From: a virus
Virus record (IMG/VR): IMGVR_UViG_3300045988_153285
Location: 1-64,000 of that record
Reading direction: 5' to 3' (one strand)
Length of the DNA stretch: 64,000 bases
Shown here: positions 20,999-43,447 of the stretch, piece by piece
Numbering within the stretch: the stretch's first letter is position 1
How the letters are laid out: each line of letters opens with the position of its first letter
Translations under genes and position numbers: made by a program
Notes under the pieces: model-generated
Databases searched by the model: none
Seen by the model: the letters and a program-made list of their open reading frames with translations, nothing else
What the model was told of the DNA's origin: nothing

Positions 20999-21985
20999 TT
21001 ATTTTAAAACTATACACTTAATATCATTAATATCTATTTTCTTACCTTCTTCAAATTCTAAATATGTATAACCATAGTTTTGAGGATTGTAACCTAACTT
21101 TCCGCAATCAGCATAATCATGAGGTAAACACATGCAACTATTTTCTACAACATAAATACCTTGTCTTCTATTTACATTCATCCTGCTATGTTTATGTGTA
21201 TGTCCAAATATAATAACATCATCTACCTCAGCCATATGTCTATTTAAGAAATGTTCTGATACTTTTTCACACATTCTTCCATCAACTCCACTAAAATCTT
21301 TTGGATGACATACTATTAAATTATCAAAAAGCTTAACTTTCCAGTCGTTTATGTATTCAAAGTTAGGTATTGGTTCATACTTAAACTTTTTACCTTTATC
21401 ATAGTAAGTAAAACCATCTTGTATCATCTCTAATAAGTTGGGGTTTAACATCTTCTGAAGTTCTTTCTGTTGCATTTTTATAATATCTCTCGTATATCTT
21501 TCCTCATGATTTCCTCTGATACAAATTATCTTTGTCTTCTCTGGATTAATTATAGTATTTATTTTCTTTATAAATTGATGAGCTATAACTATTTCCTGGT
21601 CTACTGTAGGTCTATCCATAACATCAAAACTACTACACGATTCACAATCAATGATATCTCCAGCCAATATTAGATAATCAATATTTTTATGTTTTCTTAT
21701 TTCATCTAAAACATCATCTCTTTGATAAGGTAAATGTATATCATTCATTACCAAAACTTTAATCTTATCATTGTTTCGCAATTTTCTTTCATTATCATAA
21801 TCTAAGAACTCTTTTAGGCCATAAGAAACCTTTCTAAGATGATCTGCTGAACAGTCTAACCCTAATAATTCAACTATTTCTTCCCATGATTTATCTATTT
21901 CCTTATTTAATTTTGCATTACATAATCTTATTTTATATTCTTGGAAATTTTCATTTTCTCTTCTTAAATAATCTCTCATTCTCAT
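20999..21985 (-). CDS. calcineurin-like metallophosphoesterase
   Basis: Motifs MNDIH, AGDIID, GNHEE and GHTHKH occur in the canonical order. Confidence 0.8.
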   Translation of the reverse strand: MRMRDYLRRENENFQEYKIRLCNAKLNKEIDKSWEEIVELLGLDCSADHLRKVSYGLKEFLDYDNERKLRNNDKIKVLVMNDIHLPYQRDDVLDEIRKHKNIDYLILAGDIIDCESCSSFDVMDRPTVDQEIVIAHQFIKKINTIINPEKTKIICIRGNHEERYTRDIIKMQQKELQKMLNPNLLEMIQDGFTYYDKGKKFKYEPIPNFEYINDWKVKLFDNLIVCHPKDFSGVDGRMCEKVSEHFLNRHMAEVDDVIIFGHTHKHSRMNVNRRQGIYVVENSCMCLPHDYADCGKLGYNPQNYGYTYLEFEEGKKIDINDIKCIVLK

Positions 21986-21997
21986 CTCTCCACTTTG

Positions 21998-22150
21998 TTA
22001 ATTTACTATTATTTCAATTCCACAAATAGGGCAATATATAAATTTTATATCTCCTACTTTCTCAAAATTCCCTAATTCAATTTCTTCATCTACATTTATT
22101 TCTCCACATCTATTAGGACATTTTACCTTTTGAACTCTTTTCTTACCCAT
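21998..22150 (-). CDS. small zinc-ribbon protein (50 aa, below ORF-track cutoff)
   Basis: Hand translation gives MGKKRVQKVKCPNRCGE...YCPICGIEIIVN. Its stop lies inside a junction motif. Confidence 0.45.
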   Translation of the reverse strand: MGKKRVQKVKCPNRCGEINVDEEIELGNFEKVGDIKFIYCPICGIEIIVN

Positions 22151-22230
22151 ACTTTTATCTCTCCACAATCATTTATTTTTGTATTCATTATAAAGCTACC
22201 AATATTATCCCAACATGAGTAACTTTAGAT

Positions 22231-22264
22231 TAAATACAAAATACCCTATCAAATAGATAAGGTA
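22231..22264 (-). terminator. intrinsic terminator closing the large ORF-free segment
   Basis: 9-bp stem at 22242-22250/22256-22264 (one G-U pair) with a minus-strand tail UUUUGUAUUU. Confidence 0.55.
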
Positions 22265-23119
22265 TTAATATATTTATTACACACTCAACCCCGCTAAAAG
22301 TTAGTGTCATTTTTTTCGCCCAACCCGATCAAAAGTAAGCGTTTATTCATGTAAAAATCTTGCAAGACCTGATTAACCCACCAATCAGGAAGTATCCATG
22401 GTATTCCCCACGCCACTGCGAAATATTATCTTGCTTTTTTATTGTCACCACTCCACCTGATAACTAGGGTTGAGTTATTTAGGAACTAGAGTGTTCTCAA
22501 GACCATATCAGATTACTCAACACAACTAATATGACCTATATGTTTTTGTGCCTTAAAGACATAGCTACTAACAGGCTTAACATACAAACCTTTTTGCACC
22601 TATATATTCCCCCTAGTAGCAAGAGAAATATAATTATTGGCAAACCCCTATATGACCTTTATAGGAATTATTGTAGTCGTAGATTTTCAAAAACAGCTCT
22701 ACTTACGCTGAGTTGCACCTTGTGTCCGAGGTGTCTAACTTATGGACTACTCATAAAGAATAACTAGGTGGTTTTTATGTCAGTCGTTCAACAACTCGCT
22801 TTTATTAACGTCTCATAACCATAAAAGAGACAACTATATAAAATAGGTTTTTCTGTTGCCTACCAACGACGTGCAATTAAATCACGTAAATCTCAGTCCC
22901 TACACTCCACTATTTCGACCACGAATAGTTTCAAAGTGTTTTGAAATATTATCTTGCTGAGTGCTAGTAGCATAGACTTACCTTCAGATACAAGATAATA
23001 TCAATTCTGCATTCACTCCATTAGCAACTGCTACTCATCAACTAACTTCGAAGTGAACTATGGCTAATCGCCGTATTTATGTTTAGTCGAGTCATATGTA
23101 CCCGCTATTATATTAATTT
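22235..23119 (-). ncRNA. candidate large structured ncRNA (~0.9 kb), class unknown
   Basis: No credible ORF in six frames. Clearly G/C-richer than its flanks. Many local helices (22368-22389, 22646-22664, 22924-22941 and others). Internal 16-nt repeat GAAATATTATCTTGCT at 22421-22436 and 22943-22958. A terminator lies at the 3' end. Confidence 0.45.
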
Positions 23120-23311
23120 TTATTCTTCGCTTGGTAATTCTTCTGTTTTAGAAATTTGTAATGAAATTCCTTCAACACCTATAAATTCTTCCAGTTTTTC
23201 AGTTAAATTATAAACTTTAACTTCGTCTTTAGAAGTTTCTTCTATGGTAAAAACACCATCTTCACATGTTATACACGCATTCGTAAATTTATAATTAGTT
23301 GCTTTCTTCAT
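23120..23311 (-). CDS. small protein in the YonK position of SPbeta-like phages
   Basis: 63 aa, immediately downstream of the HU gene and the YonO-like gene. The assignment rests on synteny only. Confidence 0.4.
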   Translation of the reverse strand: MKKATNYKFTNACITCEDGVFTIEETSKDEVKVYNLTEKLEEFIGVEGISLQISKTEELPSEE

Positions 23312-23319
23312 AATATCAC

Positions 23320-23595
23320 CTACTCATTAACTATTTCTTTGATCTTACTTGATTGCTTATATGCAACTTTTTTACCTGCTTTTATAATAAGTTTCTCACC
23401 AGTAGCAGGATTATGTCCTTCTCTTTCTTTTGTTTCTTTTACTGATAATGTTCCGATTGTACCAAAAACTACTTTCCCATCTTCTAATAATCCTTCAACT
23501 ACAACTTCTTCTAAAGTTGCAATTAATTCCTTTGCTCTTTCTTGTGATACTCCTACCTTTGTTGCAAACTCTTTTCTCATTTCTGTTAAATTCAT
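23320..23595 (-). CDS. HU/IHF-family DNA-binding protein
   Basis: 91 aa. Contains GTLSVKETKEREGHNPATGEKLIIKAGKKVAYK, the typical HU arm. Confidence 0.9.
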   Translation of the reverse strand: MNLTEMRKEFATKVGVSQERAKELIATLEEVVVEGLLEDGKVVFGTIGTLSVKETKEREGHNPATGEKLIIKAGKKVAYKQSSKIKEIVNE

Positions 23596-23946
23596 TATTC
23601 TCTACTCCTTTGACTCTCTTTTATTTTATTAATTTTTGTTTATCTCACTTCCCTATAAGAAAGGACTGCTCAACCGTACGAACAGTCCAAAATATAAAAG
23701 GGAGATGAGAATTTATGAGATATGCCCCGAAGGGCTTGGTATATTAAAGTATTTCTACTATAAATATCTTGTAACAGGGGACTTAGATATTAGTGTCGAC
23801 TCGTCCCCTAAAAAATACTTGACTTTACAAAGTCTATTTGATAAGATATTATTGATATATTATACTCTTATCATTATATAGAATAAGAGCAATCTCGCAA
23901 TCCATTGATATTACTAGGTTTGCGAGGTGTTAAAAAACAAAAAACA
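23596..23946 (-). promoter_or_regulatory. long structured leader / intergenic RNA upstream of the HU gene
   Basis: Minus-strand helices include GCCC-UUCG-GGGC (23724-23735), AGGGGAC/GTCCCCT, GGACTG/CAGTCC and CTCGCAA/TTGCGAG. Possible TTGCGA-16-TATAAT promoter. A junction motif lies at 23624-23635. Confidence 0.4.
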
Positions 23947-26874
23947 CTATTTTACATGATTTATATCACATCTCTTAACCATAATATATTTATCTCCAAA
24001 TATGTTTATATCACCAAAATTATCTTTTGTTAATATAATTTCATTCTTATTATTTGAATTTTTAAACACTGATAATAATTTAACCTTATGAATACTATTG
24101 TATAATAATATCATAAGAAACATTCCAATCTTTGACCAATCCGATTCTCTTTTTGTTTCACCAAATGCTTTTTGAAGCATAGAATATATTGTTTTCGCAT
24201 TTATTTTAATATTGGAAATATCATTAATAGAAGATTCTCTTTTTCTTCTTAATATTGTTTCCTTGCTCTTAGATTTCATGTTTTTATTACTTCTAAGTCC
24301 ATTTATCGTGCTTGAGTATGATTTGCATATTTTATAGACAACTTCTTGGGGTTCTATCTTACTTCTATCTCCATCTAAGCTCTTAGCTTTTACCATTATG
24401 CCCCCAATAGATTTAGTTCCCCTAGGGTTTCTTGTCCTACATTCATCTAATATTTCTTCTAAATAATCCATAGGAGTATTAAATTTAATTGTATTTCTAT
24501 ATGTATTATCTTGAGCAACATATTCAAAGAATTTAGGAACTATCATTTTTTTAATTTTCTTTTGCTCTCCTTTCACATTTAATTTCGGAACTTTTATGAT
24601 TTCGCCAGTTTCAGAATCAACTTTCTCCTCAAACAAATATTCAATATCAAAATCTATAATTGTTTTACCTTTATATTTCATGTCATTTATATTTTTTAAT
24701 TCCTTTGTCATAGATATATTATCAAAAGATTTTTTAGCCTTATCTAGTTCTATTTGAGATAAACTAGATAACATTGATGATATATCATATAGCTTCTGAA
24801 TCAATTCCTCGTCCATTCCTTTTGATTTACAGTTCCACATATAACTATTTATTATTTGAGACTTATTTATTATCTTTCCTATAAAATTATTGCTTAAAAC
24901 ATCATCTAATTCGGCCAATTCATCAAGTGTATTATGTCTTATTTTACTATCGCCTTTAACCAAGTTTAATGGAGTTTTATACATTTGGCATTTCTCTGCA
25001 ACATCTACAAATGTCTTGTGGGGAATATGTAACAACGTATCAGAATCATAATCAAACCCCTGCCCTCTATCGGGAAAATCGTTGTCGCTAACATTTACAA
25101 TAGTTATGTTGTTACTAAAATTAAACCATTTATATTCATCATGCCATTTGTTTGTTGCCACCATTACATTACCTGAATTTATATGTGGATTTCTAAATGT
25201 GGCCAATTTTTGATTATCTTCATAGAATTTACAATATATTTCTGTCCCTTTAGCTAAACATATGTTATCATATTCCCCTATACTATGTAATAACATTTCA
25301 TAAGGATTTGCTACTATGGTTGAGTATATAGTGTTTTCTAATCTAATTTTCCCTTTTCTAAGTTCATTTATATAGCACTGTATTTGATTTAACCTAAACT
25401 TCTTAAATATTTTTGTATATTGGAAATCACTATTTATAGCTAAAATGTTATTTATCATTTCGCCAGTAGAATAATTATCATTATCTGATTTAAAAACTTC
25501 TTCATTACCCCAATCAATTTCTTCTATATCCTTCTCCAACTGTTCTGCTACTGCTTCTTTTATTGCTATATGATTTTTAAAATAAGCCAAATCAGTCTTT
25601 AATAATCTAACATATTCTAATTCGTGCCACATCAATTCTTTTATCTGTTCTTTTGTAAATGGCATACTGTTAATTATCTGATATGTTGTCCTATTCCAAG
25701 TTCCATAATTACCTTCTTTGTCACTTTTTACAATTCCGAATACATTATCTATATTGTTGAACCATTCTTCATAACACTCTTTATCGTCTTTGAATTTATA
25801 CTTAAATTTCAAAAATTTAATACTAGATGGCGTAGTTACCAATAATATATCTTTATAATCTATCCAACCTCTATACTTATCTTTTATCTTCCCGTCTTTT
25901 ATTTTTCCTTGACTATCCATATATGCAAAGAATTTTTGTAGTTTTGTATTAAATGCACAACATTTAAACATATCGCTTCTTAATAACATCATACCTTTTT
26001 TAGATCTATTTGCAATTTTGAATACAGACTCGTCCAACAACCCCTGTCCATCTGTCATATTATTAACTCTAGTTACCTTTTCATTCTTAGTCTGTAGTTT
26101 TCCATTTACTTCTCTTGTGACGCTTGATTCAACTTCAAACGGTAAACTATCTATGTCATCAATGAGCAATATTGACTTGGGTTCTATATGTATAATATCC
26201 TCGATTCCACTTAATACAAGAGATTGATAAGCATTTAATGATGTTATATCACACTGTTCTCCTTCATCTATAAATAAACCTTTCTTATTTTTGATTTCCT
26301 CTTTAGTCTTATTATGGAGTAACCTGCTTCTATTCATCATTTTTTTATACATTCCCTCTTTTATAAATAAACAAGATCCTGTCCTAGCTTTTGATGCACC
26401 TCTTTTATAGAATATGTATTTTTGACCATCAATAGTAAATCCATTAGTATAAAGGTATTTTCTCATACCCTTTCTGCTCTTTACTAAATATCTTTCTCTT
26501 ATGGGCTTACCTTCTTCATTTAATTTTATTTCTCCTGTTTCAGAATCTACTTTATCTCTCCACTGATTATAATTTTCATCAAAAGTAACATTAACTATTG
26601 CTTTTGTATATTGTTTTTTATTTTTTACGTAAATTTCTTTTGGATAATATTCATCCAGCCTTATCATTTCTAAGCTATACGGTATTGTTGCTGTAAACAG
26701 CCTATCATAAGAAATGTCTTTTGTTGAATAACATCCTTTTTTATTAATTATTAAGCCATCTTTATTTGCTATATCTTCTGTCATAGCTCTATATAAATAG
26801 CAAGCATCTATATTGTATATGTATGTATTCTCTTGTTTTTTAATAATATCCATCTCTTTATTTTCTAATTTCAT
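23947..26874 (-). CDS. YonO-like single-subunit two-barrel RNA polymerase (RdRP/QDE-1-related) candidate
   Basis: 975 aa. FRNPHINSGNV resembles the RNPxxHPGD element of RDR-type polymerases. GFDYDSD resembles the DxDGD metal site. Synteny with HU and a 63-aa gene matches SPbeta yonO-yonN-yonK. Confidence 0.55.
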   Translation of the reverse strand: MKLENKEMDIIKKQENTYIYNIDACYLYRAMTEDIANKDGLIINKKGCYSTKDISYDRLFTATIPYSLEMIRLDEYYPKEIYVKNKKQYTKAIVNVTFDENYNQWRDKVDSETGEIKLNEEGKPIRERYLVKSRKGMRKYLYTNGFTIDGQKYIFYKRGASKARTGSCLFIKEGMYKKMMNRSRLLHNKTKEEIKNKKGLFIDEGEQCDITSLNAYQSLVLSGIEDIIHIEPKSILLIDDIDSLPFEVESSVTREVNGKLQTKNEKVTRVNNMTDGQGLLDESVFKIANRSKKGMMLLRSDMFKCCAFNTKLQKFFAYMDSQGKIKDGKIKDKYRGWIDYKDILLVTTPSSIKFLKFKYKFKDDKECYEEWFNNIDNVFGIVKSDKEGNYGTWNRTTYQIINSMPFTKEQIKELMWHELEYVRLLKTDLAYFKNHIAIKEAVAEQLEKDIEEIDWGNEEVFKSDNDNYSTGEMINNILAINSDFQYTKIFKKFRLNQIQCYINELRKGKIRLENTIYSTIVANPYEMLLHSIGEYDNICLAKGTEIYCKFYEDNQKLATFRNPHINSGNVMVATNKWHDEYKWFNFSNNITIVNVSDNDFPDRGQGFDYDSDTLLHIPHKTFVDVAEKCQMYKTPLNLVKGDSKIRHNTLDELAELDDVLSNNFIGKIINKSQIINSYMWNCKSKGMDEELIQKLYDISSMLSSLSQIELDKAKKSFDNISMTKELKNINDMKYKGKTIIDFDIEYLFEEKVDSETGEIIKVPKLNVKGEQKKIKKMIVPKFFEYVAQDNTYRNTIKFNTPMDYLEEILDECRTRNPRGTKSIGGIMVKAKSLDGDRSKIEPQEVVYKICKSYSSTINGLRSNKNMKSKSKETILRRKRESSINDISNIKINAKTIYSMLQKAFGETKRESDWSKIGMFLMILLYNSIHKVKLLSVFKNSNNKNEIILTKDNFGDINIFGDKYIMVKRCDINHVK

Positions 26875-29374: not shown

Positions 29375-29438
29375 TTTTCCACCTCTTTATTTTTGTTAAT
29401 TTATATTTATGCATTTAAATCGCATTATAATAATTTCT

Positions 29439-29545
29439 AAGCGTTTTTATTTTTAGACGATAAATTATACCTATAACTACTAAACTCTATTCTTACAGCC
29501 TGTAATTCACTTTTTCTTCGAGTATATCAATGTATCTCTTATCGT
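29439..29545 (+). repeat. copy a of a dispersed ~30-100 bp intergenic element
   Basis: Exact 25-mer TTTTATTTTTAGACGATAAATTATA at 29445-29469 equals 37550-37574. Similarity continues for about 70 nt. Confidence 0.7.
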
Positions 29546-30732: not shown

Positions 30733-31029
30733 GTGGTTGAGTTGGGTGGAAATTTCACAGAAAATGATTATAAAATAATGAAAGCTATCTTAGATAAAAA
30801 CGATAAGCAAAAAGGATTACGTAGAAATAAAGCTACTACAATAGAGGAGATACAGGGAAAAACAAATTTATCATCTACAAAAATAAGAAACACTTTAAAT
30901 TCATTTATCCAACATGGTTTTGTGTGTGAAGGAATTAAGCAAGGGAGAACAAAAACATATATGATGACTGAAGAAGGTTTAATAGAATTAAATAGTTTAA
31001 GAATGAATATATTCGGAAAGGTGGAGTAA
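30733..31029 (+). CDS. tubR: TubR-like winged-helix centromere-binding protein
   Basis: 98 aa, immediately upstream of tubZ. HTH-like segment reads TTIEEIQGKTNLSSTKIRNTLNSF. Confidence 0.6.
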   Translation: MVELGGNFTENDYKIMKAILDKNDKQKGLRRNKATTIEEIQGKTNLSSTKIRNTLNSFIQHGFVCEGIKQGRTKTYMMTEEGLIELNSLRMNIFGKVE

Positions 31030-31032
31030 TAA

Positions 31033-32094
31033 ATGAAAAAATCAAGCGTACTAGCTATAGGTTGTGGAGGAGCAGGTAATAGACTTCTTAATGAATTTTT
31101 AGAGTTAGATAGAAGATATACGGGTATTTTTATGAATACTAATATGGCGGAAATGGAAGATTTGAAACATTTTGATAGAGAAAGAAGATGTTTTTATATA
31201 CCAAATGCAGATGGTACAGGTAAGGATAGAAAATTAGCAGAACAATATATAAAAGATGAAGCTGCTAAGTTTGTTGAGATGATTAAAAAATTTACTAATC
31301 AAAATCATATAATATTCTTAACAAGTGCAAATGGGGGTACTGGATCAAAAGCTTCTGTTATGCTTCCAAGATTGATAAAAGCAGCTTGTCCTGATAAAAC
31401 AATATCTTTAATAGCAACTTATCCAAATATAGATGAATCTGATATAGATTTTGAAAATAGTTTAGATTTCTGGGAAGAAGTTAAAACTTGTAGAAAAAGA
31501 AAATTCATAGACAACGTTAGATTTATAGATAATAATAAACCATATAGTGAAGATGAAATAAATAAGCTTGCTATGAAAGAGTTAGATGATAGTTTTAACA
31601 TAATGGAAGGAAAATTAGATAGTTCTGATGTTACTAGATATCATGTAAGCAATGGTTATAATGTAGTTCTTAGATTAGATTCTGATGTATCTTCAATTAA
31701 AAGAGTTATTGATATGGCATTATCTAAAAGTGTGTACTATATTCCTGAAAATTTAGAATGTGATGTTTTAATAGGGAATATAAATAGTAAATCACATTCT
31801 TTGGCTGACATTAGAGAGAAAATTGAATGCTATGACTTCTCTAAATTCAACACAAAAACAGAAGGAGATTCTTTATTACTTATAGGTGGATGTATAATGC
31901 CTACTGAAGCAATAGAGTTAGTTCAAGAGAGCTTAGAAGATTTAAAAAATAGAAGAAATAGAAGACAACGTGAAGAAGACATTGTAATCAAAAGAAATAA
32001 AAAGGAAACTGTGAAAAAAGAGAAAGAAACTTCATCAAGAGTAACTTCTGAAGACCTAGATGCTATGTACGAAGATGATTCTTTCTGGGATTAA
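31033..32094 (+). CDS. tubZ: TubZ tubulin/FtsZ-like GTPase (plasmid/phage partition motor)
   Basis: T1 loop reads AIGCGGAGNR and the tubulin signature reads SANGGTGSKAS. The C-terminal tail is charged. Confidence 0.8.
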   Translation: MKKSSVLAIGCGGAGNRLLNEFLELDRRYTGIFMNTNMAEMEDLKHFDRERRCFYIPNADGTGKDRKLAEQYIKDEAAKFVEMIKKFTNQNHIIFLTSANGGTGSKASVMLPRLIKAACPDKTISLIATYPNIDESDIDFENSLDFWEEVKTCRKRKFIDNVRFIDNNKPYSEDEINKLAMKELDDSFNIMEGKLDSSDVTRYHVSNGYNVVLRLDSDVSSIKRVIDMALSKSVYYIPENLECDVLIGNINSKSHSLADIREKIECYDFSKFNTKTEGDSLLLIGGCIMPTEAIELVQESLEDLKNRRNRRQREEDIVIKRNKKETVKKEKETSSRVTSEDLDAMYEDDSFWD

Positions 32095-35705: not shown

Positions 35706-36932
35706 TTATAACTCAATCATATACTTATTCACATCATATTTTCCATAAGGCAATCCCTTTTGGGTATATTTTTTTATGTCATCTACAAATCCCATCTTTA
35801 TTCTGTCATCAATGTATCTAAGTAGAGCTGCTATGTAGTCCATACTTTCTAATCTACAATATTTTATTATGTCATCATAATCTATTCCAAGTTCTCTTAA
35901 TCTACTAACTATTTCTTCATCAGTAGTATATTTATCTAGCCCTCTAGCTTTTTCTCTGCTAGTGGTATTGAATACTAAATTCACACCTTCATTTATAAAG
36001 CTATATTCTTGAATAAATTTAATTGATTTTAATTCTTCTAGAGCTATTTTTAATTGCTTATTAGAATAATATATCTCATCTTTTGTGATACAATCTAGAC
36101 CTATATAGTCACATAAGGTTTGAAATTTAATATATTTTTCATATCCCCTAGACCATTGAGTGAGTATTAGCTGCAGTTTCTTTGCAACACTACTTTTTAA
36201 ACTTTTATAAATATCGTAATCATATATCTTTAAAAAATTATTGCATAGATTTTTATAGAAAAAGTCATCAATTTCAACACTTTGATGTTCTTCTATCTTA
36301 GCAGGATCTAATAATTTCTTATTTGCCATTTTACGTTTTGAAACACTATAAGACTTATAATTCTTTAATATTCTTGAACTTTCACACCCATCAAAATCTA
36401 TTACATATTCTCCTACCTCCTGATCTCTTATTGCTAGAGTAGAGTATATGGTGCATTCATTTAAGCATAATATAGATTTTTCTAACCTTTCTTTTGTGGC
36501 CTTCCCAAATCCGCTCAACCCCATTTCTTTCGCTAATCCTCTATATGTGAAGTTTATTTTCTGTGGCATATTAGTTATGGAATGCTTAGAAGTCAATACC
36601 TCACCATTTTCATCTACGGTTTTAGAAGTCAATACCTCAATCTTATCATCCATATTTTTAGAATGAATTTTAAATAATGCCATCAATACATCTAGTTCAT
36701 ATATTGTTGGACATAGATATTTAGCTCCACCTACAACCTTCAATGCAACTTCTTGACCATCCCTAATCCAAAATCTTTTTATTTCAGGAACTCTCTTTCT
36801 TTTTAAAGATATAAATGGCAACGTCATTAAATTTGATTCATTAAAGCTTTGACTTTTCTTCATATTAATAACTTTTCCACATGATAAATCCTCATTTTTA
36901 CTTGTTTCTACAATGTTTTCCACATTATTCAC
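35706..36932 (-). CDS. plasmid replication initiator (Replication-initiator-protein-A-like)
   Basis: The N-terminus LMTLPFISLKRKR... is typical of RepA/RPA-type initiators. An internal 18-bp direct repeat lies at 36586-36603 and 36622-36639. Iterons lie directly upstream. Confidence 0.6.
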   Translation of the reverse strand: MNNVENIVETSKNEDLSCGKVINMKKSQSFNESNLMTLPFISLKRKRVPEIKRFWIRDGQEVALKVVGGAKYLCPTIYELDVLMALFKIHSKNMDDKIEVLTSKTVDENGEVLTSKHSITNMPQKINFTYRGLAKEMGLSGFGKATKERLEKSILCLNECTIYSTLAIRDQEVGEYVIDFDGCESSRILKNYKSYSVSKRKMANKKLLDPAKIEEHQSVEIDDFFYKNLCNNFLKIYDYDIYKSLKSSVAKKLQLILTQWSRGYEKYIKFQTLCDYIGLDCITKDEIYYSNKQLKIALEELKSIKFIQEYSFINEGVNLVFNTTSREKARGLDKYTTDEEIVSRLRELGIDYDDIIKYCRLESMDYIAALLRYIDDRIKMGFVDDIKKYTQKGLPYGKYDVNKYMIEL

Positions 36933-36957: not shown

Positions 36958-37092
36958 ACTTGTGGTACTCAGTTCAAATGCTAGTGGTATTGACTTCTAA
37001 TCCTTGTGGTATTGAAATCAAAAGACTGTGGTATTCAATGATAATGCTAGTGGTATTGAAATTATCCACAGTGGTATTCACTTCTAAAGAAT
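36958..37092. repeat. six 22-bp iterons (GTGGTATT core), candidate oriV
   Basis: Cores at 36962, 36984, 37006, 37028, 37050 and 37071, spaced 22, 22, 22, 22 and 21 bp. Confidence 0.75.
37062..37070 (+). promoter_or_regulatory. consensus DnaA box TTATCCACA
   Basis: Exact 9-mer between iterons 5 and 6. Confidence 0.55.
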
Positions 37093-37547
37093 CTTCTGTA
37101 TCAATTTATATAACTAATTTCCAGCATCCTTGTTACACGTTTATAGTTACTTAGTATTTTATTACATTTGTATTTAGAGTTTAGTATTAGGTTTAAAGTA
37201 ATAGTAACACAAATACCTCTAGCACTCAATACCTCACCCAATTCATTTCTATAATTTTCAAAAGATCTAATTCTTATTGTATATTTAAGTTGCATACTTA
37301 ATTGCATATATACAGTATACAACTATATTAAATAAAACATGTAAATATAAAGCACTATTTTCTCAATAAGAAATCAGTAGGGAATAGTAGAGAAGTAGTA
37401 ATGATATATAAATTTCTTATATTTCTTATATTAGGACTTGTACAATTGGACATGCTGCAATAATGAAAATCATACCCCTAGCGCAAATCTTTCAGATACG
37501 CCCTACTAAGGGACTTTGCTTATAAGCCTTTATTTGCCTTTCTAAAG

Positions 37548-37650
37548 GATTTTATTTTTAGACGATAAATTATATCTATAATAAATTTAAATTGATTCTA
37601 GGACGTATTATGGCTTTTCTTTTCGAATATCAAAACAACGACTAACGTGT
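37548..37650 (+). repeat. copy b of the dispersed intergenic element
   Basis: See 29439-29545. Confidence 0.7.
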
Positions 37651-38406: not shown

Positions 38407-38469
38407 GGCAGTTGCCGACTGAAACTAAGAAAATAATATAAAAAATATTATAAAAATTAACAAAAAAGT

Positions 38470-39526: not shown

Positions 39527-39766
39527 ATGAAAGATTTACAATTATATGAATTATTAAAAGATGCTTACGAATCAACAACTAAAAACTATAATAGATTTAA
39601 AAAGGTAATAGAGTCTACTAAATGGGATAATACATTTACAGCAGACGGCGAACACTATTTCATTAAAGATAATCTCACATTAACAATAGAAAATACAGAT
39701 CCATTTAAGGAAGCCTGGAAACCTACTGTATGGATTGGATCAGATTATTATAGTTTAAGCAATTAG
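39527..39766 (+). CDS. hypothetical protein
   Basis: 79-aa ORF. A terminator-like hairpin lies at 39764-39785. Confidence 0.5.
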   Translation: MKDLQLYELLKDAYESTTKNYNRFKKVIESTKWDNTFTADGEHYFIKDNLTLTIENTDPFKEAWKPTVWIGSDYYSLSN

Positions 39767-39879
39767 GCCTAAAAGGTCTTTTTGTTGTTTATATAGATAT
39801 TCTAATAAAAAGGAGATGATTAAGTTGAATGTGTTATAAAAATTAACAAAATAAATATATAGATAGGAGAAATAAGAGA

Positions 39880-40050
39880 ATGAATAAATTATATGTAATT
39901 AAAACAATAACAATGTACAAGCATCTATGTAACAAGGGTATATATCCAATTGAGATAGAACCGAACATTTACATACCTAAATTTGTTGTATGGAAATACG
40001 AGAATACTCCAGAGCTTCATGCAGCAATGAGGGAATTTAAAAATAATTAA
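39880..40050 (+). CDS. small DUF5659-like protein (56 aa, below cutoff)
   Basis: Hand translation gives MNKLYVIKTITMYKHLCNKGIYPIEIEPN...VVWKYENTPEL. Pattern resembles the 26917-27087 product. Confidence 0.4.
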   Translation: MNKLYVIKTITMYKHLCNKGIYPIEIEPNIYIPKFVVWKYENTPELHAAMREFKNN

Positions 40051-40104
40051 TTAATCAATTAAGCTAAAAGTCAAAACTAAAAACTAAAAGGAGAATTAAA
40101 AAGC

Positions 40105-40995
40105 ATGAAATTAGAAGATATAACGGAAAACTTTACAATGATACCAAATGAGGTTATTAAATTAGAAAATGAATTAACTACTAAAGAATTATTAATATTA
40201 ACTATTATATTAACTACTAGAGCAGGAAATAAAAATATATGTATATTTAATTTACAATCTATTTATAGTACGTTAGGAATAAAAAGTAATAATACAAAAA
40301 CTAAAAAAGAAGTAAAGGATATATTGCAGTTATTTAAGGATGAAAATATACTACAGTATTTCACCGATATATTTTGCACTGAAGAAATAGATAACATATT
40401 AAACTATGATAAAAACAATTTAATTTATGCACATATCATTGACTTAGATTCTGAAGGATTTACTTACATATTAGATCAAGAAATTAAATACATATTAGAC
40501 CATTCTAAAGAAAACAAACTAGATACAAGTATAATGTTAAAAATATGTTTATATATTCTTAGCTTTATAAATGAAAATGAACAAGATGAATATTATAAAC
40601 TAGCTTTTCCTAAAATGACCACAATAGCTGAAAATGTAGACGTAACAGAAAAAACAGTATTAAAACATGTCAACGCCTTAAAAGAGTTGAAAATATTAAA
40701 TTTTGACTATGCAGGATTTAAGGAAATGAGAGACGGAAAAATAAAAAATGGAAATATGTTTTATTGTAGATATGAAGATAGTAAAATATTACTTGAGCAG
40801 TTAGAAAGAGAAAGAAGTACAAAAGGATTTATAAAACAAAATAAATTACAAAAAGATAAAAGTAATCTAAAGAGAAGAATAACACAAGAAATAAATTACA
40901 TAAATAAAAAGATAGAAAATAATACAGCTGATGAGATAGAAAGAGAAAAGATAAAACTACTAAAAGAAGAGTATAGCAAACTTGAAAATCGCTAG
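40105..40995 (+). CDS. wHTH DNA-binding protein (RepA_N/DnaD-like candidate)
   Basis: The N-terminus FTMIPNEVIK...LTTKELLILT is typical of such initiator/organiser proteins. A second HTH reads TIAENVDVTEKTVLKHVNAL. Confidence 0.3.
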   Translation: MKLEDITENFTMIPNEVIKLENELTTKELLILTIILTTRAGNKNICIFNLQSIYSTLGIKSNNTKTKKEVKDILQLFKDENILQYFTDIFCTEEIDNILNYDKNNLIYAHIIDLDSEGFTYILDQEIKYILDHSKENKLDTSIMLKICLYILSFINENEQDEYYKLAFPKMTTIAENVDVTEKTVLKHVNALKELKILNFDYAGFKEMRDGKIKNGNMFYCRYEDSKILLEQLERERSTKGFIKQNKLQKDKSNLKRRITQEINYINKKIENNTADEIEREKIKLLKEEYSKLENR

Positions 40996-41086
40996 GTTTT
41001 CAATGATTCATATTTATAAATTAGTGATGTTGTTATTTATTTATGTTGATAATTAGTAATATTGTTACACTATACTGTGTTATTAA

Positions 41087-41309
41087 TTTCTTCTACAATT
41101 TGAATTTTGAAGTATTAAAAATTTCTACAATTTGAGTTGATGAGTATAAGAAATTAATAAAATGAAGTTTTAGTCTGTAAACCTAGTAAAATAGCCACTT
41201 TTGAGGGAATTATAAAAATAAATATATTATTAAAACCTAGTAAACAAGCCATTTATAACAGATAATAGACTAAAACTTCAAAATATAAGAAATTAATAAA
41301 ATAAAGTTT
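41087..41309. repeat. nested direct and inverted repeats in an intergenic region
   Basis: TTCTACAATTTGA x2, AAACCTAGTAAA..AGCCA x2 and TATAAGAAATTAATAAAAT.AAGTTTT x2. Inverted pair GAAGTTTTAGTCT (41164-41176) / AGACTAAAACTTC (41267-41279). Confidence 0.65.
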
Positions 41310-41355
41310 TCAAGCAAAATAATAAAATCTAAAAGTAAAGAAAGGAATAAAAGAC

Positions 41356-42330
41356 ATGAGAGAATTTAAAGTGAATAATTGGTTAGGGCTAACAAAAGAA
41401 GGAGAATATGTTACAATAGATCAAGTGACAGATATACATACAGATTACTATTGTCCATCATGCGGTGAAATTTTACATGGCAGAGCTTTAGAGTCTGAAT
41501 TAGTCGAAAGACATTTTTACCATTTACAAAATAATAACTTAGAAAGTTGCAACTGTGAACAAGCCTATAAAAGATATTGGAAAGATAAATTTATTTCAGT
41601 TGGTGAAATTATGACATTACCATTTTTAAACGAGATAACTTGTATTGCTAAAGAAATTGATCATAAGGTTAATAGTGATTTAACAGCAGATATTTACATA
41701 AAGTCATCTAATGATGATAATATAGTGATATTGTTTGAAGATAGTAAACAAGTTGAAAATAGTAATTTAAATTATACAATTTTTTATTTAAATTTTATGG
41801 AGCTAAAAAGAGATTTAACAAATATAAACGAGTGTTTAGTATTACTACATAGTGAACAAATTAACAAAATAAATATTGAATTTAAAAATAAAATCAATGA
41901 TATTGCAAGCATTTTTACAAGATTTTTAAAAATTGATTTTTCAGAATGTGCGGTTAATATAAATAAATGTGTAGGTATAAAAAAGGAATTTGAATTATTG
42001 GGTTATAAAGACGAGTGTATTATTATGGATTGTTTAATAGATTCTTTGAAAAAGAGAACAATAACTATTTGTAAATATAAAAATATAAACATAACAAAAG
42101 ATGAAGTAAAAGCGGTCGAATTTTTAATTAATAAATTAAGATCAATTACAAAGTACAATATATCTTTAGATGTAAAAATGTTAAAGTCTATGAAATACAA
42201 AATATATAATAAAGGTTATTATAATAATAGTTGGACTAAATCAGTTTATTTTGACTTAATAAAGCCAATAGGAGCAGAATTTAACTCATACATAAATAAA
42301 ATTGAAAATATTCTAAATAACAATGAATAA
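41356..42330 (+). CDS. CoiA-like N-terminal domain protein
   Basis: YYCPSCGEILHGR...RHFYH resembles the N-terminus of the 27074-28456 product. Confidence 0.35.
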   Translation: MREFKVNNWLGLTKEGEYVTIDQVTDIHTDYYCPSCGEILHGRALESELVERHFYHLQNNNLESCNCEQAYKRYWKDKFISVGEIMTLPFLNEITCIAKEIDHKVNSDLTADIYIKSSNDDNIVILFEDSKQVENSNLNYTIFYLNFMELKRDLTNINECLVLLHSEQINKINIEFKNKINDIASIFTRFLKIDFSECAVNINKCVGIKKEFELLGYKDECIIMDCLIDSLKKRTITICKYKNINITKDEVKAVEFLINKLRSITKYNISLDVKMLKSMKYKIYNKGYYNNSWTKSVYFDLIKPIGAEFNSYINKIENILNNNE

Positions 42331-42470
42331 ATTAACAAAATTAAGTATGCAATATAAATATAAGTCTATAATATTCATAAAAGGAAGCACTAACAAGAAA
42401 CGAAATAAAGTTAGTGCTTTCCTTATTCTAATAAAAATTAACACAATCTAATATAAATTAACAAAACAAA

Positions 42471-42499
42471 TTGACAAAAGAATAAGTAAATGTTTTAAT
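42471..42499 (+). promoter_or_regulatory. promoter TTGACA-17-TTTAAT (TG-extended) driving the ORF-free unit
   Basis: Read directly from the sequence. Confidence 0.45.
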
Positions 42500-42505
42500 A
42501 TAATT

Positions 42506-42999
42506 AAAATTTAAAAATATTATTTTATATAAATTAATAAAAATATAGGAAGTCCTATAAGGCAACTGGAACACAGAAAAACAGTATAAATAAACTGTGG
42601 TTGGCCACCGACTAAAAAGAAGGCTCGGATATAAGTATTACTTACTATATGCTTATAACCGTCAAACGGGTACATATGACCGTTAAATAAATTATATGGG
42701 TTTGGTTAGCTTAGGTTAGAAATAACGGACTTATAATAAGCTTTAAAGCGTATTCTATGGGCTAAGAGTAGAATGTTAAAGTTATAAGATAACAAAGTAA
42801 GTAATATTACTAAGATACAATAGCGATATACAGTAGTATTTTTGTTTGCCTCGAAAAACAGGGGTAAACTATACCCAAAAATGTGTCCAAGCTCAACCAG
42901 TAGTATATAGCTTCGCTACCTAATTGCAAGTAAAAACTATATTTTATTTATATAAATTAATAAAACAAAGAAGAAGTTTAACGACTTCTTTTTATTTTG
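42506..42999 (+). ncRNA. candidate structured ncRNA (~0.45 kb) with its own promoter and terminator
   Basis: No ORF and G/C-richer than its flanks. Bracketed by junction motifs at 42531 and 42954. Terminator stem at 42971-42977/42984-42990 followed by a T-run. Shares CGGGTACATATGAC with the minus strand of 22235-23119. Confidence 0.45.
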
Positions 43000-43038
43000 T
43001 CTAATATTTGATATAATATCCATTAGGAGGTGTTTTGA

Positions 43039-43302
43039 ATGGTTATAAATAAAAACAATGGAAAAATAGTAATAGAAGAATATAGAGAGTTTAACGGGTT
43101 TATAACGGGCATTAAAACAATTAAGGCTTATAACATTACTGTGTTGGATCTTGAAGGTATAGAAAAGTTAAAAGGTAAATTAAGAGTGCAGCAATTAGAG
43201 AATAGAAAGAATTATAAATTTTCTCACAATAGTACCAACAAGGATTTGGTTGAATATGTATTGAATGAATTGAAGAAATACAAGTATATTACTATAAAAT
43301 AA
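43039..43302 (+). CDS. hypothetical protein
   Basis: 87-aa ORF with RBS AGGAGG. Confidence 0.5.
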   Translation: MVINKNNGKIVIEEYREFNGFITGIKTIKAYNITVLDLEGIEKLKGKLRVQQLENRKNYKFSHNSTNKDLVEYVLNELKKYKYITIK

Positions 43303-43332
43303 GGATTTTAAGCTGTTTTAAGCCTGAATTTA

Positions 43333-43362
43333 AAGCGTTTAGCATTTAGAGGATAAATTATA
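43333..43362 (+). repeat. copy c (partial) of the dispersed intergenic element
   Basis: Reads AAGCGTTTAGCATTTAGAGGATAAATTATA, compared with 29439-29469. Confidence 0.5.
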
Positions 43363-43447
43363 TTATTAAAAACAAAAACTAAAATTATACTGTTTTAATG
43401 AGATTTACAAGCTATAAAAAATTTAAAATATAAATTAATAAAATAGG

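What the first reader, a model, noticed from the sequence alone, without database searches (positions are those of the whole stretch)
42471..42999. Self-contained ORF-free transcription unit (~0.45 kb) sharing an exact 14-mer with the 0.9-kb candidate RNA
A TTGACA-17-TTTAAT promoter (42471-42499) and a clean terminator (42971-42999) bracket a G/C-richer stretch with no coding potential. Junction motifs sit at both ends (42531, 42954). CGGGTACATATGAC at about 42667-42680 is identical to the minus strand of 23091-23104, and CGACTAAA also recurs in both. An exact 14-mer shared between two short non-coding regions is unlikely to arise by chance. It suggests a family of related RNAs on this element.
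Basis: partly seen in the sequence, partly recalled or inferred. Interest (0 to 1): 0.65.

Follow-up and report, generated by a model that had tools for sequence, protein, structure and literature searches.

The report
New structured RNA on Clostridium mobile elements
The ORF-free stretch is a gene-sized cassette for a roughly 390-nucleotide, intricately folded RNA of a family not listed in Rfam, carried by Clostridium plasmids and plasmid-like phages; it is not related to the 0.9-kb region, with which it shares only one short hairpin.

Summary
The promoter-like site, terminator hairpin, flanking 19-mers, raised G+C and exact 14-mer are all at the stated coordinates.

The core (42545-42935, + strand) is real and conserved. 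About 15 distinct homologues were found. They include C. perfringens plasmid p21-D-5a, C. botulinum 202F phage-plasmid pCBI, a complete 6.1-kb C. cibarium plasmid and several viral or metagenomic contigs. Homology stops at the edges of the core.

Nine hand-curated internal helices are 98.6% paired, with 55 G·U and no A·C cells. With the closing helix there are ten helices and 48 pair positions, 36 of which show compensatory changes. Tool-based consensus folds recover four helices. A GNRA tetraloop is kept in 14 of the 15 members on co-varying stems.

No Rfam 15 family matches any member, and four of the five literature searches were aimed at this and found no description.

The claim of "a family of related RNAs on this element" fails. 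The 0.9-kb region is the indel-variable leader after a yonK-like gene of an SPbeta-like late operon. It shares only the 14-mer, and a covariance model finds no second copy. The 14-mer is the tip of a hypervariable hairpin (H5).

Function is unknown. My best guess is a trans-acting RNA that helps maintain the element.

The parts
42381..42424 (+). Strong hairpin closing the upstream 324-aa gene. It insulates the RNA unit from read-through.
   Evidence: -17.2 kcal/mol, z = -5.7.
42448..42466 (+). Degenerate copy (3 mismatches) of the junction motif, ending 4 nt before the -35 hexamer.
   Evidence: (D1).
42471..42499 (+). Sigma-A-type promoter-like site, TTGACA-17-TTTAAT. It belongs to a promoter module repeated in the window.
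   Evidence: Sequence; repeat family D1/D4; not listed by the scan because the -10 lacks A2.
42524..42542 (+). Exact 19-nt junction motif, copy 1, ending 2 nt before the conserved RNA core.
42545..42935 (+). Conserved core of the structured RNA, about 390 nt. Homology to other elements starts at 42527-42565 and ends at 42906-42952.
   Evidence: (block limits).
42555..42570 (+). 5' strands of the closing helices (CUAU, GG, UGGA). They pair with 42886-42903.
   Evidence: (P1). UGGA/UCCA is almost invariant, so support is weak. Alternative registers are noted.
42572..42625 (+). Helices H2 (CACAG/CUGUG, 42572-42576 with 42595-42599) and H3 (GGCC/GGCU, 42603-42606 with 42622-42625). The H3 loop carries CCGACUAA.
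   Evidence: compensatory changes at 4 of 5 (H2) and 3 of 4 (H3) positions.
42630..42657 (+). Helix H4 with a conserved 12-nt loop, UURCYUNCNAUA.
   Evidence: 5 of 6 positions compensatory. Recovered independently by RNAalifold (5 of 6 pairs).
42665..42684 (+). Hairpin H5, AACGG-GUACAUAUGA-CCGUU. The 14-mer (42667-42680) is its tip.
   Evidence: The stem co-varies in all 15 members. The loop is invariant in the 5 type-A members and different in the other types.
42704..42731 (+). Helix Pa (GGUU/GACU) enclosing hairpin H6, GUUA-GAAA-UAAC (42715-42726), which has a GNRA tetraloop.
   Evidence: The tetraloop is GAAA, GCAA or GGAA in 14 of 15 members, on co-varying stems.
42732..42786 (+). Three-way junction. 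Closing helix P6 (UAUAA/UUAUA), a small variable hairpin, and hairpin Hg (42751-42775) with the conserved loop UGGGCnnnnAG.
   Evidence: P6 5 of 5, Hg 5 of 5 compensatory. Hg was recovered by RNAalifold (7 of 8 pairs).
42803..42869 (+). Helices Hh (42803-42811 with 42832-42840, loop with invariant GAUACAA) and Hi (42844-42852 with 42861-42869).
   Evidence: 95.3% paired against 89.6% in shuffles, 0 of 500 shuffles as high. Sliding the partners gives 32-44% paired.
42867..42888 (+). Near-invariant strand AACUAUACCCnAAAAnGUGUCC. Its first 20 nt (AACUAUACCCnAAAAnGUGU) were the search seed used to collect the family.
42947..42965 (+). Exact 19-nt junction motif, copy 2, directly after the core.
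42968..42999 (+). Weak intrinsic-terminator-like hairpin plus a U-rich tail.
   Evidence: -9.7 kcal/mol, z = -2.4.
23084..23107 (-). Second site of the 14-mer. It is a hairpin, UAGCGGGU-ACAUAUG-ACUCG(A)CUA, 13 nt after the stop of the yonK-like ORF, at the head of the long late-operon leader.

Best explanation
The region 42545-42935 (+) is a stand-alone gene for a roughly 390-nt, highly structured RNA. It belongs to a family that is not in Rfam 15 and travels as a portable cassette among Clostridium small mobilisable plasmids, a conjugative-type plasmid, phage-plasmids and prophage-like contigs.

Shown.
- The block is conserved, and homology stops at its edges.
- It folds on the + strand only.
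- At least ten helices are kept by compensatory changes.
- A GNRA tetraloop is kept in 14 of 15 members, and long unpaired stretches are nearly invariant.

Inferred from sequence signals.
- In this element the RNA is transcribed from its own sigma-A-type early promoter (42471-42499), or from the junction motif just before the core.
- Transcription ends at the hairpin at 42968-42999.
- The unit is insulated upstream by the terminator of the preceding gene.

Inferred mechanism, low confidence (about 0.25).
- The RNA acts in trans as a folded RNA or RNA-protein scaffold that serves establishment or maintenance of the element (replication, copy control or counter-defence). It does not regulate a particular neighbouring gene.
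- Hairpin H5 is a peripheral, exchangeable specificity element.
- In this SPbeta-like phage-plasmid the same tip is displayed at the head of the late-operon leader after yonK. The RNA and the late transcript therefore probably engage the same partner: one hairpin-binding factor, or each other through the self-complementary CAUAUG in both loops.

The 0.9-kb region itself is not a member of the family.
For: Homologues.
- 89-90% identity over 283 nt to C. perfringens p21-D-5a, in an unannotated stretch.
- C. botulinum 202F pCBI.
- Seven IMG/VR contigs, Clostridium genomes and MAGs, and metagenome contigs.
- Nineteen loci score 79-126 bits with model R1. Among all other fetched loci, which were brought in by chance pattern matches, the best scores are 32 and 31 bits at two genome-scan loci, at the very sites that contain the 20-nt seed; everything else is at or below 24 bits.
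- Homology is confined to 42527-42952.

Structure.
- Ten hand-curated helices: 48 positions, 689 of 705 cells paired, 36 positions with compensatory change. Shuffled partners give 522 +/- 11, with a maximum of 553.
- In the nine internal helices: 566 Watson-Crick, 55 G·U, 0 A·C. This equals 98.6% paired on the + strand and 89.8% on the other strand.
- RNAalifold on plain MAFFT alignments recovers Hh, Hi, Hg and H4, with 7 of 20, 7 of 8 and 5 of 6 pairs changed on both sides.
- The count of structure pairs gives 0 of 500 shuffles as high, and slid partners give 32-44% paired.
- The MFE is -90.8 kcal/mol (z = -2.4) on the + strand and -77.3 kcal/mol (z = -1.0) on the - strand.

Not coding. No ORF is shared among members.

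Expression signals..

Independence from neighbours. Flanking genes differ in every context, yet the RNA always lies in their orientation.

Hairpin H5. The stem co-varies. The loop is invariant in five type-A members whose stems differ. The same 14-mer forms a hairpin after yonK and is kept in six relatives.
Against: - There are no expression data. In other members no clear promoter or terminator is conserved, and several have a strong hairpin plus U7 only about 35 nt before the core.
- The promoter's -10 (TTTAAT) is poor.
- No protein partner or gene neighbour is shared by all contexts, so the maintenance role rests on distribution alone.
- Sharing of the loop with a second site is not general. 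Type-B loops occur once per contig in IMG/VR, and pCBI has no second copy.
- Six-nucleotide palindromes occur in only 2 of 7 loop types, about P = 0.1 by chance.
- The helices were chosen by eye. Only four of them were recovered by an unsupervised fold.
- The family was collected with one 20-nt seed, so its true breadth is unknown.
Confidence: 0.65

Rival explanations
1. The RNA is a replication primer or origin RNA, working like ColE1 RNA II. It would fold co-transcriptionally and prime DNA synthesis. The variable H5 loop would set incompatibility or copy-control specificity.
For: - L016 is a complete circular 6.1-kb plasmid: it has a 46-nt terminal overlap and 393x coverage. It carries NikA/MobC, a relaxase, YitT, an RHH protein and this RNA, but no recognisable Rep protein.
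- In L056 the RNA follows an HTH_36 protein directly. In the window an HTH_36 protein lies 1.5 kb upstream.
- The variable apical loop on a conserved stem recalls specificity loops.
Against: - No antisense partner is conserved. The minus-strand -35/-10-like site at 42779-42752 falls in sequence that is not conserved in C-type members (read).
- Large phage-plasmids that carry the RNA have their own maintenance genes: TubZ, iterons and ParA.
- Near-invariant unpaired stretches and a GNRA loop suggest a tertiary fold rather than a primer.
- GC skew of L016 is uninformative.
- One 196-aa ORF of L016 has no family match and could be a Rep protein.
Confidence: 0.12
2. The element acts as folded single-stranded DNA rather than as RNA. 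It would be a single-strand origin (sso-like) or a single-strand promoter used after conjugative entry or rolling-circle replication.
For: - It occurs on mobilisable plasmids with Mob_Pre or MobA-type relaxases and on a C. perfringens plasmid typed as mobilisable.
- It is strand-specific and always co-directional with neighbours.
- No promoter or terminator is conserved across members.
- Some neighbours are anti-restriction-type genes: LPD29, and a 1985-aa ORF that I read as methylase-like, untested.
Against: - 8.7% of helix cells are G·U. These would be G·T mismatches in DNA. There are no A·C cells.
- GNRA tetraloops are kept on co-varying stems, and UUCG loops occur in several members.
- It is present in tailed phage-plasmids (pCBI and this SPbeta-like element) that have no relaxase nearby.
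- The window copy is bracketed by a promoter and a terminator.
- blastn against 72,556 plasmids finds only two Clostridium plasmids and none of the classical sso-bearing plasmids.
- TAGCGA, which resembles CS-6, is present only in type-A members.
Confidence: 0.1
3. The 14-mer shared with the late-operon leader has no joint function. H5 would be a neutral peripheral hairpin, and the match would be chance or a relic of recombination.
For: - Loops of other types are not duplicated on their elements.
- The rest of the two regions is unrelated.
- Counting all non-coding DNA in the window, some exact shared 14-mer is not very improbable. My estimate is about 0.1 for roughly 6 kb of spacer.
Against: - This particular 14-mer is expected 0.07 times even with 2 mismatches allowed.
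- It is the longest and most G+C-rich word that the RNA shares with the rest of the window.
- In both places it forms the tip of a hairpin.
- The loop is invariant in five type-A members while the flanking stem changes.
Confidence: 0.3
4. The region is a cis-acting leader, riboswitch or attenuator that controls the downstream genes (43039 onward).
For: - A terminator-like hairpin follows the core, with genes in the same direction after it.
- In p21-D-5a the core ends about 60 nt before a pilin operon, with no terminator in between.
Against: - Downstream genes differ in every member.
- The next gene in the window has its own extended -10 element, TGATATAAT (read).
- No Rfam riboswitch or leader matches.
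- At 390 nt with ten helices it is far larger than known leaders.
Confidence: 0.04

Closest known systems
ROOL and GOLLD RNAs (large ornate RNAs of phages and prophages of Bacillota; function unknown; shown by cryo-EM to form homo-oligomers, PMC12286853)
   Same: It is a stand-alone, large, multi-helix non-coding RNA carried by mobile elements of Bacillota. It has conserved unpaired stretches, no obvious protein partner and no known function.
   Different: There is no match to either Rfam model at any threshold tried. It is smaller, about 390 nt. The window has no tRNA genes. It is found on small plasmids as well as on phages. Oligomerisation is untested.
ColE1-type primer RNA II with its antisense RNA I
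   Same: It is a long structured plasmid RNA with a stem-loop whose loop varies between plasmids. One complete small mobilisable plasmid that carries it has no recognisable Rep protein.
   Different: No antisense gene is conserved and there is no evidence for an origin. It also occurs on large phage-plasmids that have their own maintenance genes. It has invariant single-stranded segments and a GNRA loop.
Single-strand origins (ssoA, ssoU, ssoT) and single-strand promoters of the leading regions of conjugative plasmids
   Same: It is a strand-specific, orientation-fixed, structured non-coding element on mobilisable plasmids.
   Different: G·U is frequent, A·C is absent, and RNA-type tetraloops are kept. 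It is present in tailed phage-plasmids. It shows no sequence similarity to plasmids known to carry sso elements.
Paired recognition hairpins in two transcripts of one phage (lambda boxB in nutL and nutR); loop-specific RNA immunity factors (P1/P7 c4, P4 CI)
   Same: The same short hairpin is displayed near the start of two separate transcription units of one phage. The loop differs between related elements.
   Different: The two loops are identical rather than complementary. No N-like protein was identified. The duplication is seen only in this element. One copy sits inside a large conserved RNA fold.
raiA and OLE RNAs (large structured RNAs of Clostridia and other Bacillota)
   Same: It is a complex fold in the same host group, with unknown biochemistry.
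   Different: Those RNAs are chromosomal, whereas this one is confined to mobile elements. There is no Rfam match.

Membership tests
Any Rfam 15 family (includes ROOL, GOLLD, OLE, raiA, HEARO, group I and II introns, RNase P, tmRNA, 6S, riboswitches) | Score at or above the family's gathering threshold with its covariance model. | tested here: not met
   One search gave 0 matches in the whole window. One search gave only noise below 21 bits at E up to 10. One search gave 0 matches at E <= 0.1 in nine loci carrying other members.
ROOL / GOLLD | Located next to tRNA genes in phages or prophages. | tested here: not met
   One search found no tRNA or tmRNA gene in the 64-kb window.
ROOL / GOLLD | Forms a symmetric homo-oligomer through inter-molecular loop contacts. 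| not testable with these tools
   The only hint is a self-complementary CAUAUG in the H5 loop. Such palindromes occur in 2 of 7 loop types, which is not significant.
The new family defined here (Clostridium mobile-element RNA of about 390 nt) | 3' domain: helices Hh and Hi, GAUACAA, UUUGUUU, and AACUAUACCCnAAAAnGUGU. | tested here: met
   window 42778-42892 scores 113.4 bits, E = 1.8e-20, over the full model. The window copy was part of the model's seed alignment, so it matches by construction. The independent evidence is its homology to the other members.
The new family defined here | Middle domain: co-varying H4, H5, the GNRA hairpin, and a three-way junction with the UGGGC loop. | tested here: met
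The new family defined here, tested on the 0.9-kb region (21986-23119, minus strand) | Match to the family model or to any member. | tested here: not met
   best score in that region is 9.4 bits, E = 7.5; only the 14-mer aligns; no similarity to any member locus.
ColE1-type primer RNA | An antisense RNA gene overlaps the 5' part and is conserved among members. | tested here: not met
   A minus-strand promoter-like site exists at 42779-42752 in the window. The corresponding sequence in C-type members has no such hexamers (read).
ColE1-type primer RNA | The replicon lacks a plasmid-encoded initiator. | tested here: inconclusive
   The complete plasmid L016 has no Pfam-recognisable Rep protein, but it has one 196-aa ORF with no family match. 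Other carriers have HTH_36 proteins or ParA/TubZ systems.
ColE1-type primer RNA | The 3' end forms a hybrid at the origin and is processed to a primer. | not testable with these tools
   This needs mapping of replication starts and RNA 3' ends.
ssoA/ssoU/ssoT single-strand origins | Sequence similarity to known sso elements, with conserved CS-6 (TAGCGT) and RSB. | tested here: not met
   blastn against PLSDB hits only two Clostridium plasmids. TAGCGA is present in type-A members only. The CS-6 and RSB consensus sequences are recalled from memory.
ssoA/ssoU/ssoT single-strand origins | Acts as folded single-stranded DNA. | not testable with these tools
   Indirect evidence argues against it: 55 G·U and 0 A·C cells, and kept GNRA loops.
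nut/boxB-type paired hairpins | The same hairpin sits in the promoter-proximal part of two transcription units of one phage. | tested here: met
   This is met for this element only. It is not seen for type-B members.
nut/boxB-type paired hairpins | A cognate hairpin-binding antiterminator protein exists. | not tested
   No candidate was identified among the proteins scanned.

The most novel reading that the evidence does not exclude
This is a previously unrecognised class of large, tertiary-folded RNA. It would be a mobile cassette shared by Clostridium plasmids and phage-plasmids that performs a core maintenance task by RNA alone. One possibility is Rep-independent priming of replication on small plasmids. 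Another is a ribozyme or decoy that counters host defence. An exchangeable apical loop would set specificity. [quoted passage not shown]
Probability: 0.15. Interest if true: 0.85.

Novelty: new variant of a known kind. Interest (0 to 1): 0.6.

Why it matters
Bacterial RNAs with ten or more conserved helices are rare. Those whose biochemistry is known (RNase P, group I and II introns, the tmRNA and SRP RNAs) do sophisticated work. Those still unsolved (OLE, ROOL, GOLLD, raiA) are long-standing puzzles.

This family adds another such RNA, with three practical advantages:
- It is small enough for structure probing or cryo-EM.
- It sits on a 6.1-kb plasmid and on a 40-kb phage-plasmid of cultivated strains (C. 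cibarium Sa3CVN1 and C. botulinum 202F), where knock-outs are feasible.
- It is restricted to mobile elements of a genus that includes major toxin-plasmid and toxin-phage carriers.

If it serves plasmid or prophage maintenance, it would be a new handle on the stability of Clostridium plasmids. The duplicated hairpin also gives a concrete, mutable link to the poorly understood control of SPbeta-type late transcription.

Tried and rejected
- **Known RNA family.** Rfam was run at gathering and at permissive thresholds on the window, on both regions and on nine other members. Nothing was found. No tRNA or tmRNA was found either.
- **Homology between the two window RNAs.** blastn with word size 7 gave only the 14-mer. 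The covariance model gave no second hit.
- **Homologues of the 0.9-kb region.** There are none in the phage or plasmid collections, and none beside relatives of the YonJ-like protein.
- **Loop duplication as a family rule.** The type-B loop pattern occurs once per contig. k-mer sharing within 13 loci shows nothing comparable.
- **Kissing-loop palindromes.** Only 2 of 7 loop types have one, which is not significant.
- **Coding explanation.** No frame is conserved. The hydrophobic 51-aa minus-strand ORF (42520-42675) is not shared by other members.
- **A protein partner shared by all contexts.** None was found.
- **Origin of replication from GC skew of the 6.1-kb plasmid.** The skew is uninformative.
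- **More members.** A second seed in IMG/VR returned 37 new loci, all chance matches at or below 24 bits.
- **Close relatives of the window.** The RNA is 100% identical in six contigs, so they carry no information on covariation.
- **YonO identity of the 975-aa ORF.** There was no PDB or NCBIfam match. The assignment rests on synteny and a DYDSD motif only.
- **Full-length covariance model.** I did not attempt one because calibration of a 390-position model would exceed the time limit. MAFFT misaligns H5, H6 and P6, so these helices rest on hand alignment.
- **Literature.** Four searches aimed at a prior description found none (and, within it, 71); the fifth concerned YonO.
Full report
**1. 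Observation**

- TTGACA (42471-42476), a 17-nt spacer and TTTAAT (42494-42499) are there. The consensus scan omits the site because the -10 lacks A at position 2.
- It is one copy of a promoter module repeated in the window: junction motif, then TTGACA, 17 nt, and a TATAAT-like hexamer. (D1, D4) shows six copies, and one search shows the motif before a TTGAC in nine places.
- The downstream hairpin (42968-42993) folds at -9.7 kcal/mol (z = -2.4) and is followed by a U-rich tail.
- The upstream gene ends in a strong hairpin at 42381-42424 (-17.2 kcal/mol, z = -5.7). The unit is therefore insulated on both sides.
- G+C is 0.33 inside the unit and 0.19 to 0.26 around it.
- Only short ORFs occur, and none is shared by the homologues.
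- The exact 19-mer TTTATATAAATTAATAAAA flanks the core at 42524-42542 and 42947-42965.
- The 14-mer CGGGTACATATGAC is exact at 42667-42680 (+) and 23091-23104 (-). These are the only two matches with up to 2 mismatches, against 0.07 expected.
- The shared 8-mer CGACTAAA is at chance level by my arithmetic.

**2. What is there**

A megablast of 24 kb around the site against 72,556 plasmids gave a single hit, and it fell exactly on the ORF-free stretch. Window 42624-42906 is about 90% identical to an unannotated spacer of C. perfringens plasmid p21-D-5a. A more sensitive search added C. botulinum 202F phage-plasmid pCBI.

Pattern scans built from strings conserved among these sequences found further copies in IMG/VR, in species-representative genomes and in metagenomes. 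Chance matches were removed by requiring two further motifs. This left about 15 distinct sequences:
- "type A": window, L049, L039, L011, L001;
- "type C" and relatives: L016, L056, L042, L048, L032;
- "type B": pCBI, L006, L010, L020, L058.

Similarity to the window begins at 42527-42565 and ends at 42906-42952 in every case, and the flanks are unrelated. The conserved unit is therefore a cassette of about 390 nt. Its promoter and terminator in the window are supplied locally.

**3. Structure**

*Strand.* The + strand folds better than the - strand: -90.8 kcal/mol (z = -2.4) against -77.3 kcal/mol (z = -1.0).

*Hand-aligned helices.* Comparing the three types by eye and then tabulating gives ten helices: closing helix P1, then H2, H3, H4, H5, H6, P6, Hg, Hh and Hi.
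- Across 15 sequences, 689 of 705 cells form standard pairs.
- 36 of the 48 pair positions show changes on both sides.
- Dealing the 3' strands out at random among the sequences gives 522 +/- 11, with a maximum of 553.
- In the nine internal helices there are 566 Watson-Crick, 55 G·U and no A·C cells. The fold therefore exists on the + strand only: 98.6% paired, against 89.8% on the opposite strand.

*Unsupervised check.* Because these helices were chosen by hand, I also ran RNAalifold on plain MAFFT alignments of sub-regions.
- It recovers Hh and Hi (7 of 20 pairs changed on both sides).
- It recovers Hg (7 of 8).
- It recovers H4 (5 of 6).
- For the 3' domain, the pair-counting tool gives 95.3% paired against 89.6% in shuffles (0 of 500 as high). 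Sliding the partners gives 32-44% paired.
- H5, H6 and P6 rest on the hand alignment, because MAFFT shifts their strands.

*Notable features.*
- H6 carries a GNRA tetraloop (GAAA, GCAA or GGAA) on stems that differ: GUUA/UAAC, GUC/GAC, GUAC/GUAC, GCUC/GGGC, UGCA/UGCA.
- A three-way junction is present, and its closing helix changes completely between types: UAUAA/UUAUA, UGUAC/GUACA, UAACC/GGUUA, CACGU/GCGUG, CAAUC/GAUUG.
- Several unpaired stretches are nearly invariant: UGGGC, GAUACAA, UUUGUUU and AACUAUACCCnAAAAnGUGUCC. Part of the last one is invariant by construction, because it contains the search seed.
- Three members carry a different 5' domain joined to the same middle and 3' domains.

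These are the marks of a tertiary-folded RNA.

**4. The 14-mer and the 0.9-kb region**

*The 14-mer within the RNA.* It is the tip of hairpin H5, AACGG-GUACAUAUGA-CCGUU. The H5 stem co-varies in all members. The loop differs between types:
- GUACAUAUGA;
- AUUAACUAA;
- GUUAACUGA;
- UAGAUAGGCAA;
- UUUUCUUUAUU;
- GUUUCAAUGU;
- UAAGAUACAACACU.

Within type A the loop is unchanged in five sequences whose stems differ.

*The second copy.* It lies on the minus strand, 13 nt after the stop codon of a 63-aa ORF (23120-23311). There it also forms a hairpin tip, UAGCGGGU-ACAUAUG-ACUCG(A)CUA.

*Genomic setting of the second copy.*
- Contigs carrying the identical HU-like neighbour (23320-23595) show the gene order: 975-aa ORF, HU-like, YonK, long spacer, 50-aa ORF, YonJ-like phosphoesterase, YonG. 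The names come from the Pfam hits.
- The window is therefore an SPbeta-like element.
- The 975-aa ORF (phrog_8308, with a GFDYDSD motif) sits where YonO does in SPbeta. That identity is inferred from synteny only.

*Nature of the 0.9-kb region.*
- It is thus the leader between yonK and the structural genes.
- In relatives only its first 370-490 nt and its last 174 nt are shared. The middle part is replaced or absent.
- Its folding z-scores are unremarkable: -0.75 on the minus strand and -1.8 on the plus strand.
- It has no homologue in the phage or plasmid collections or in any family locus.
- It shares nothing but the 14-mer with the 0.4-kb RNA.
- It scores 9.4 bits with the family model.

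It is not a relative of the RNA.

*Is the duplication a family rule?* No. Type-B loops occur once per contig in IMG/VR, and pCBI has no second copy.

**5. Context**

*The window.* It also encodes TubR and TubZ (30733-32094) and phage proteins, so I read it as a plasmid-like prophage. At least 18 near-identical contigs exist. In the six compared, the RNA is 100% identical.

*Other carriers of the family.*
- A complete circular 6.1-kb C. cibarium plasmid (46-nt terminal overlap) with NikA/MobC, a MobA-type relaxase, YitT and an RHH protein, and no recognisable Rep.
- A contig with Mob_Pre and an HTH_36 protein just upstream of the RNA.
- Contigs with tyrosine recombinases, a 1985-aa ORF that I read as methylase-like (untested), or a restriction-modification system (functions read by eye from the translations, not scanned).
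- pCBI, where the RNA lies between parA and a 765-aa protein homologous to the window's 791-aa ORF.

No neighbouring gene is constant, yet the RNA is always co-directional with its neighbours.

*An upstream hairpin.* Several members have a conserved strong hairpin plus U7 about 35 nt before the core. Its role is unexplained.

**6. How it most likely works**

*Shown.* It is a conserved, strand-specific, multi-helix fold that moves as a cassette among Clostridium mobile elements.

*Inferred.*
- It is transcribed as a discrete RNA. The evidence is the promoter and terminator bracket in the window, the G·U usage and the RNA-type tetraloops.
- It acts in trans, since its neighbours vary.
- My best guess (about 0.25) is a role in establishment or maintenance of the element, with H5 as an exchangeable peripheral hairpin.
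- In this phage the identical tip on the late-operon leader suggests a common partner, or a loop-loop contact through CAUAUG.

*Rivals.*
- A ColE1-like primer RNA (0.12).
- A single-stranded DNA origin or promoter (0.10). G·U frequency, GNRA loops and presence in tailed phage-plasmids argue against it.
- A cis-acting leader (0.04).
- For the 14-mer alone, coincidence or a recombination relic (0.3).

**7. Comparison with what is known**

- No Rfam 15 family matches any member.
- Four literature searches aimed at a prior description found none (and within them); the fifth search was about YonO.
- The closest in kind are the orphan ornate RNAs of phages (ROOL and GOLLD). This RNA is not a member of either: there is no model match and no tRNA neighbourhood.
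- It fails the tested features of ColE1 RNA II and of sso elements.
- The paired hairpin resembles nut/boxB logic only superficially.

**8. Verdict**

- The finding is real and more interesting than a generic spacer. It is a candidate new class of large structured RNA restricted to Clostridium plasmids and phage-plasmids.
- The proposed kinship with the 0.9-kb region is wrong.
- Limits: there are no expression data, the family was collected with one 20-nt seed, about 15 distinct sequences are known, and part of the structure rests on hand alignment.

Noticed in passing
Whole window; examples at 38447, 39491, 42448, 42524, 42947, 43425, 45372, 56246, 61781, 62868 (+) and 28473, 29391, 29615 (-): A strand-specific motif, (T)ATA(A/T)AAATTAA(C/T)AAAA. 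Its 12-nt core occurs 32 times, against 2.3 in shuffles. It appears to lie on the sense strand of the local genes (judged against the ORF list; a few copies not checked). Nine copies sit 4-5 nt before a TTGAC -35 and eight sit 2-13 nt before a ribosome-binding site. It contains a TATAAA-like hexamer, so it could be a phage-specific promoter, an UP-like element or an RNA processing site.
   Followed up: partly
Window 20999-26874 (-): SPbeta-like late-operon head. The order is a 975-aa ORF (phrog_8308, GFDYDSD motif, in the position of YonO), an HU-like protein, a YonK-like protein, a leader of about 950 nt, a 56-aa zinc-ribbon ORF and a YonJ-like phosphoesterase. The leader's middle part is indel-variable among close relatives: the spacer is 476, 631 or 969 nt, or holds an inserted 289-aa gene.
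   Followed up: partly
Window 30733-32094 (+): A TubR-like winged-helix protein followed by a TubZ/PhuZ-like tubulin. This implies that the element is kept as a plasmid-like prophage.
   Followed up: no
Window 36959-37068: Five tandem 22-bp iterons (CTnGTGGTATTGA...) next to a 408-aa ORF on the minus strand (35706-36932, phrog_23878). This is a likely origin or centromere-like site (D3).
   Followed up: no
Window 29434-29476, 37539-37581, 43331-43372: Three copies of a repeat of about 42 nt, TTTCTAA(G/A)(C/G)GnTTTTATTTTTAGACGATAAATTATA. One copy lies just downstream of the 87-aa gene that follows the RNA. It may be an operator set (D8 and D17).
   Followed up: no
L016 (Clostridium cibarium Sa3CVN1, NODE_56), whole contig; RNA at about 4190-4580: A complete circular plasmid of about 6.1 kb (46-nt terminal overlap, 393x coverage). 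It carries NikA/MobC, a MobA-type relaxase, YitT, an RHH protein and the RNA, with no recognisable replication protein.
   Followed up: partly
L016 4137-4178; equivalent sites in L056, L048, L011 and L049: A strong hairpin plus U7 with conserved sequence, GAAUUUCAA..GCCUUUUAGU..ACUAAAAGGCUUUUUUU (-17 kcal/mol, z = -7). It lies about 35 nt upstream of the RNA core in several members and is absent from the window. It could be an attenuator, a separate small RNA or an insulating terminator.
   Followed up: partly
L001 about 5930-6000, L039 and L032 (5' parts of their RNA copies): Three members carry a different 5' domain (..ACUAUGAG..GCCAAUG.A.AAA..) joined to the standard middle and 3' domains. 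The helix before UCGG still co-varies: GGUU/AACU, GGUC/GACU, GAUG/CAUU.
   Followed up: partly
Window 42565-42576 with 42883-42901: Alternative closing pairings are possible. ACUGG could pair with CCAGU instead of UGGA with UCCA. The 5' strand of H2 (CACAG) could pair with the invariant GUGU. This may indicate a conformational switch.
   Followed up: no
Window 39600-43200: Among six otherwise mosaic relatives, this 3.6-kb block (HTH_36 protein, 324-aa protein, RNA, 87-aa protein) is almost invariant, while both flanks diverge strongly.
   Followed up: no
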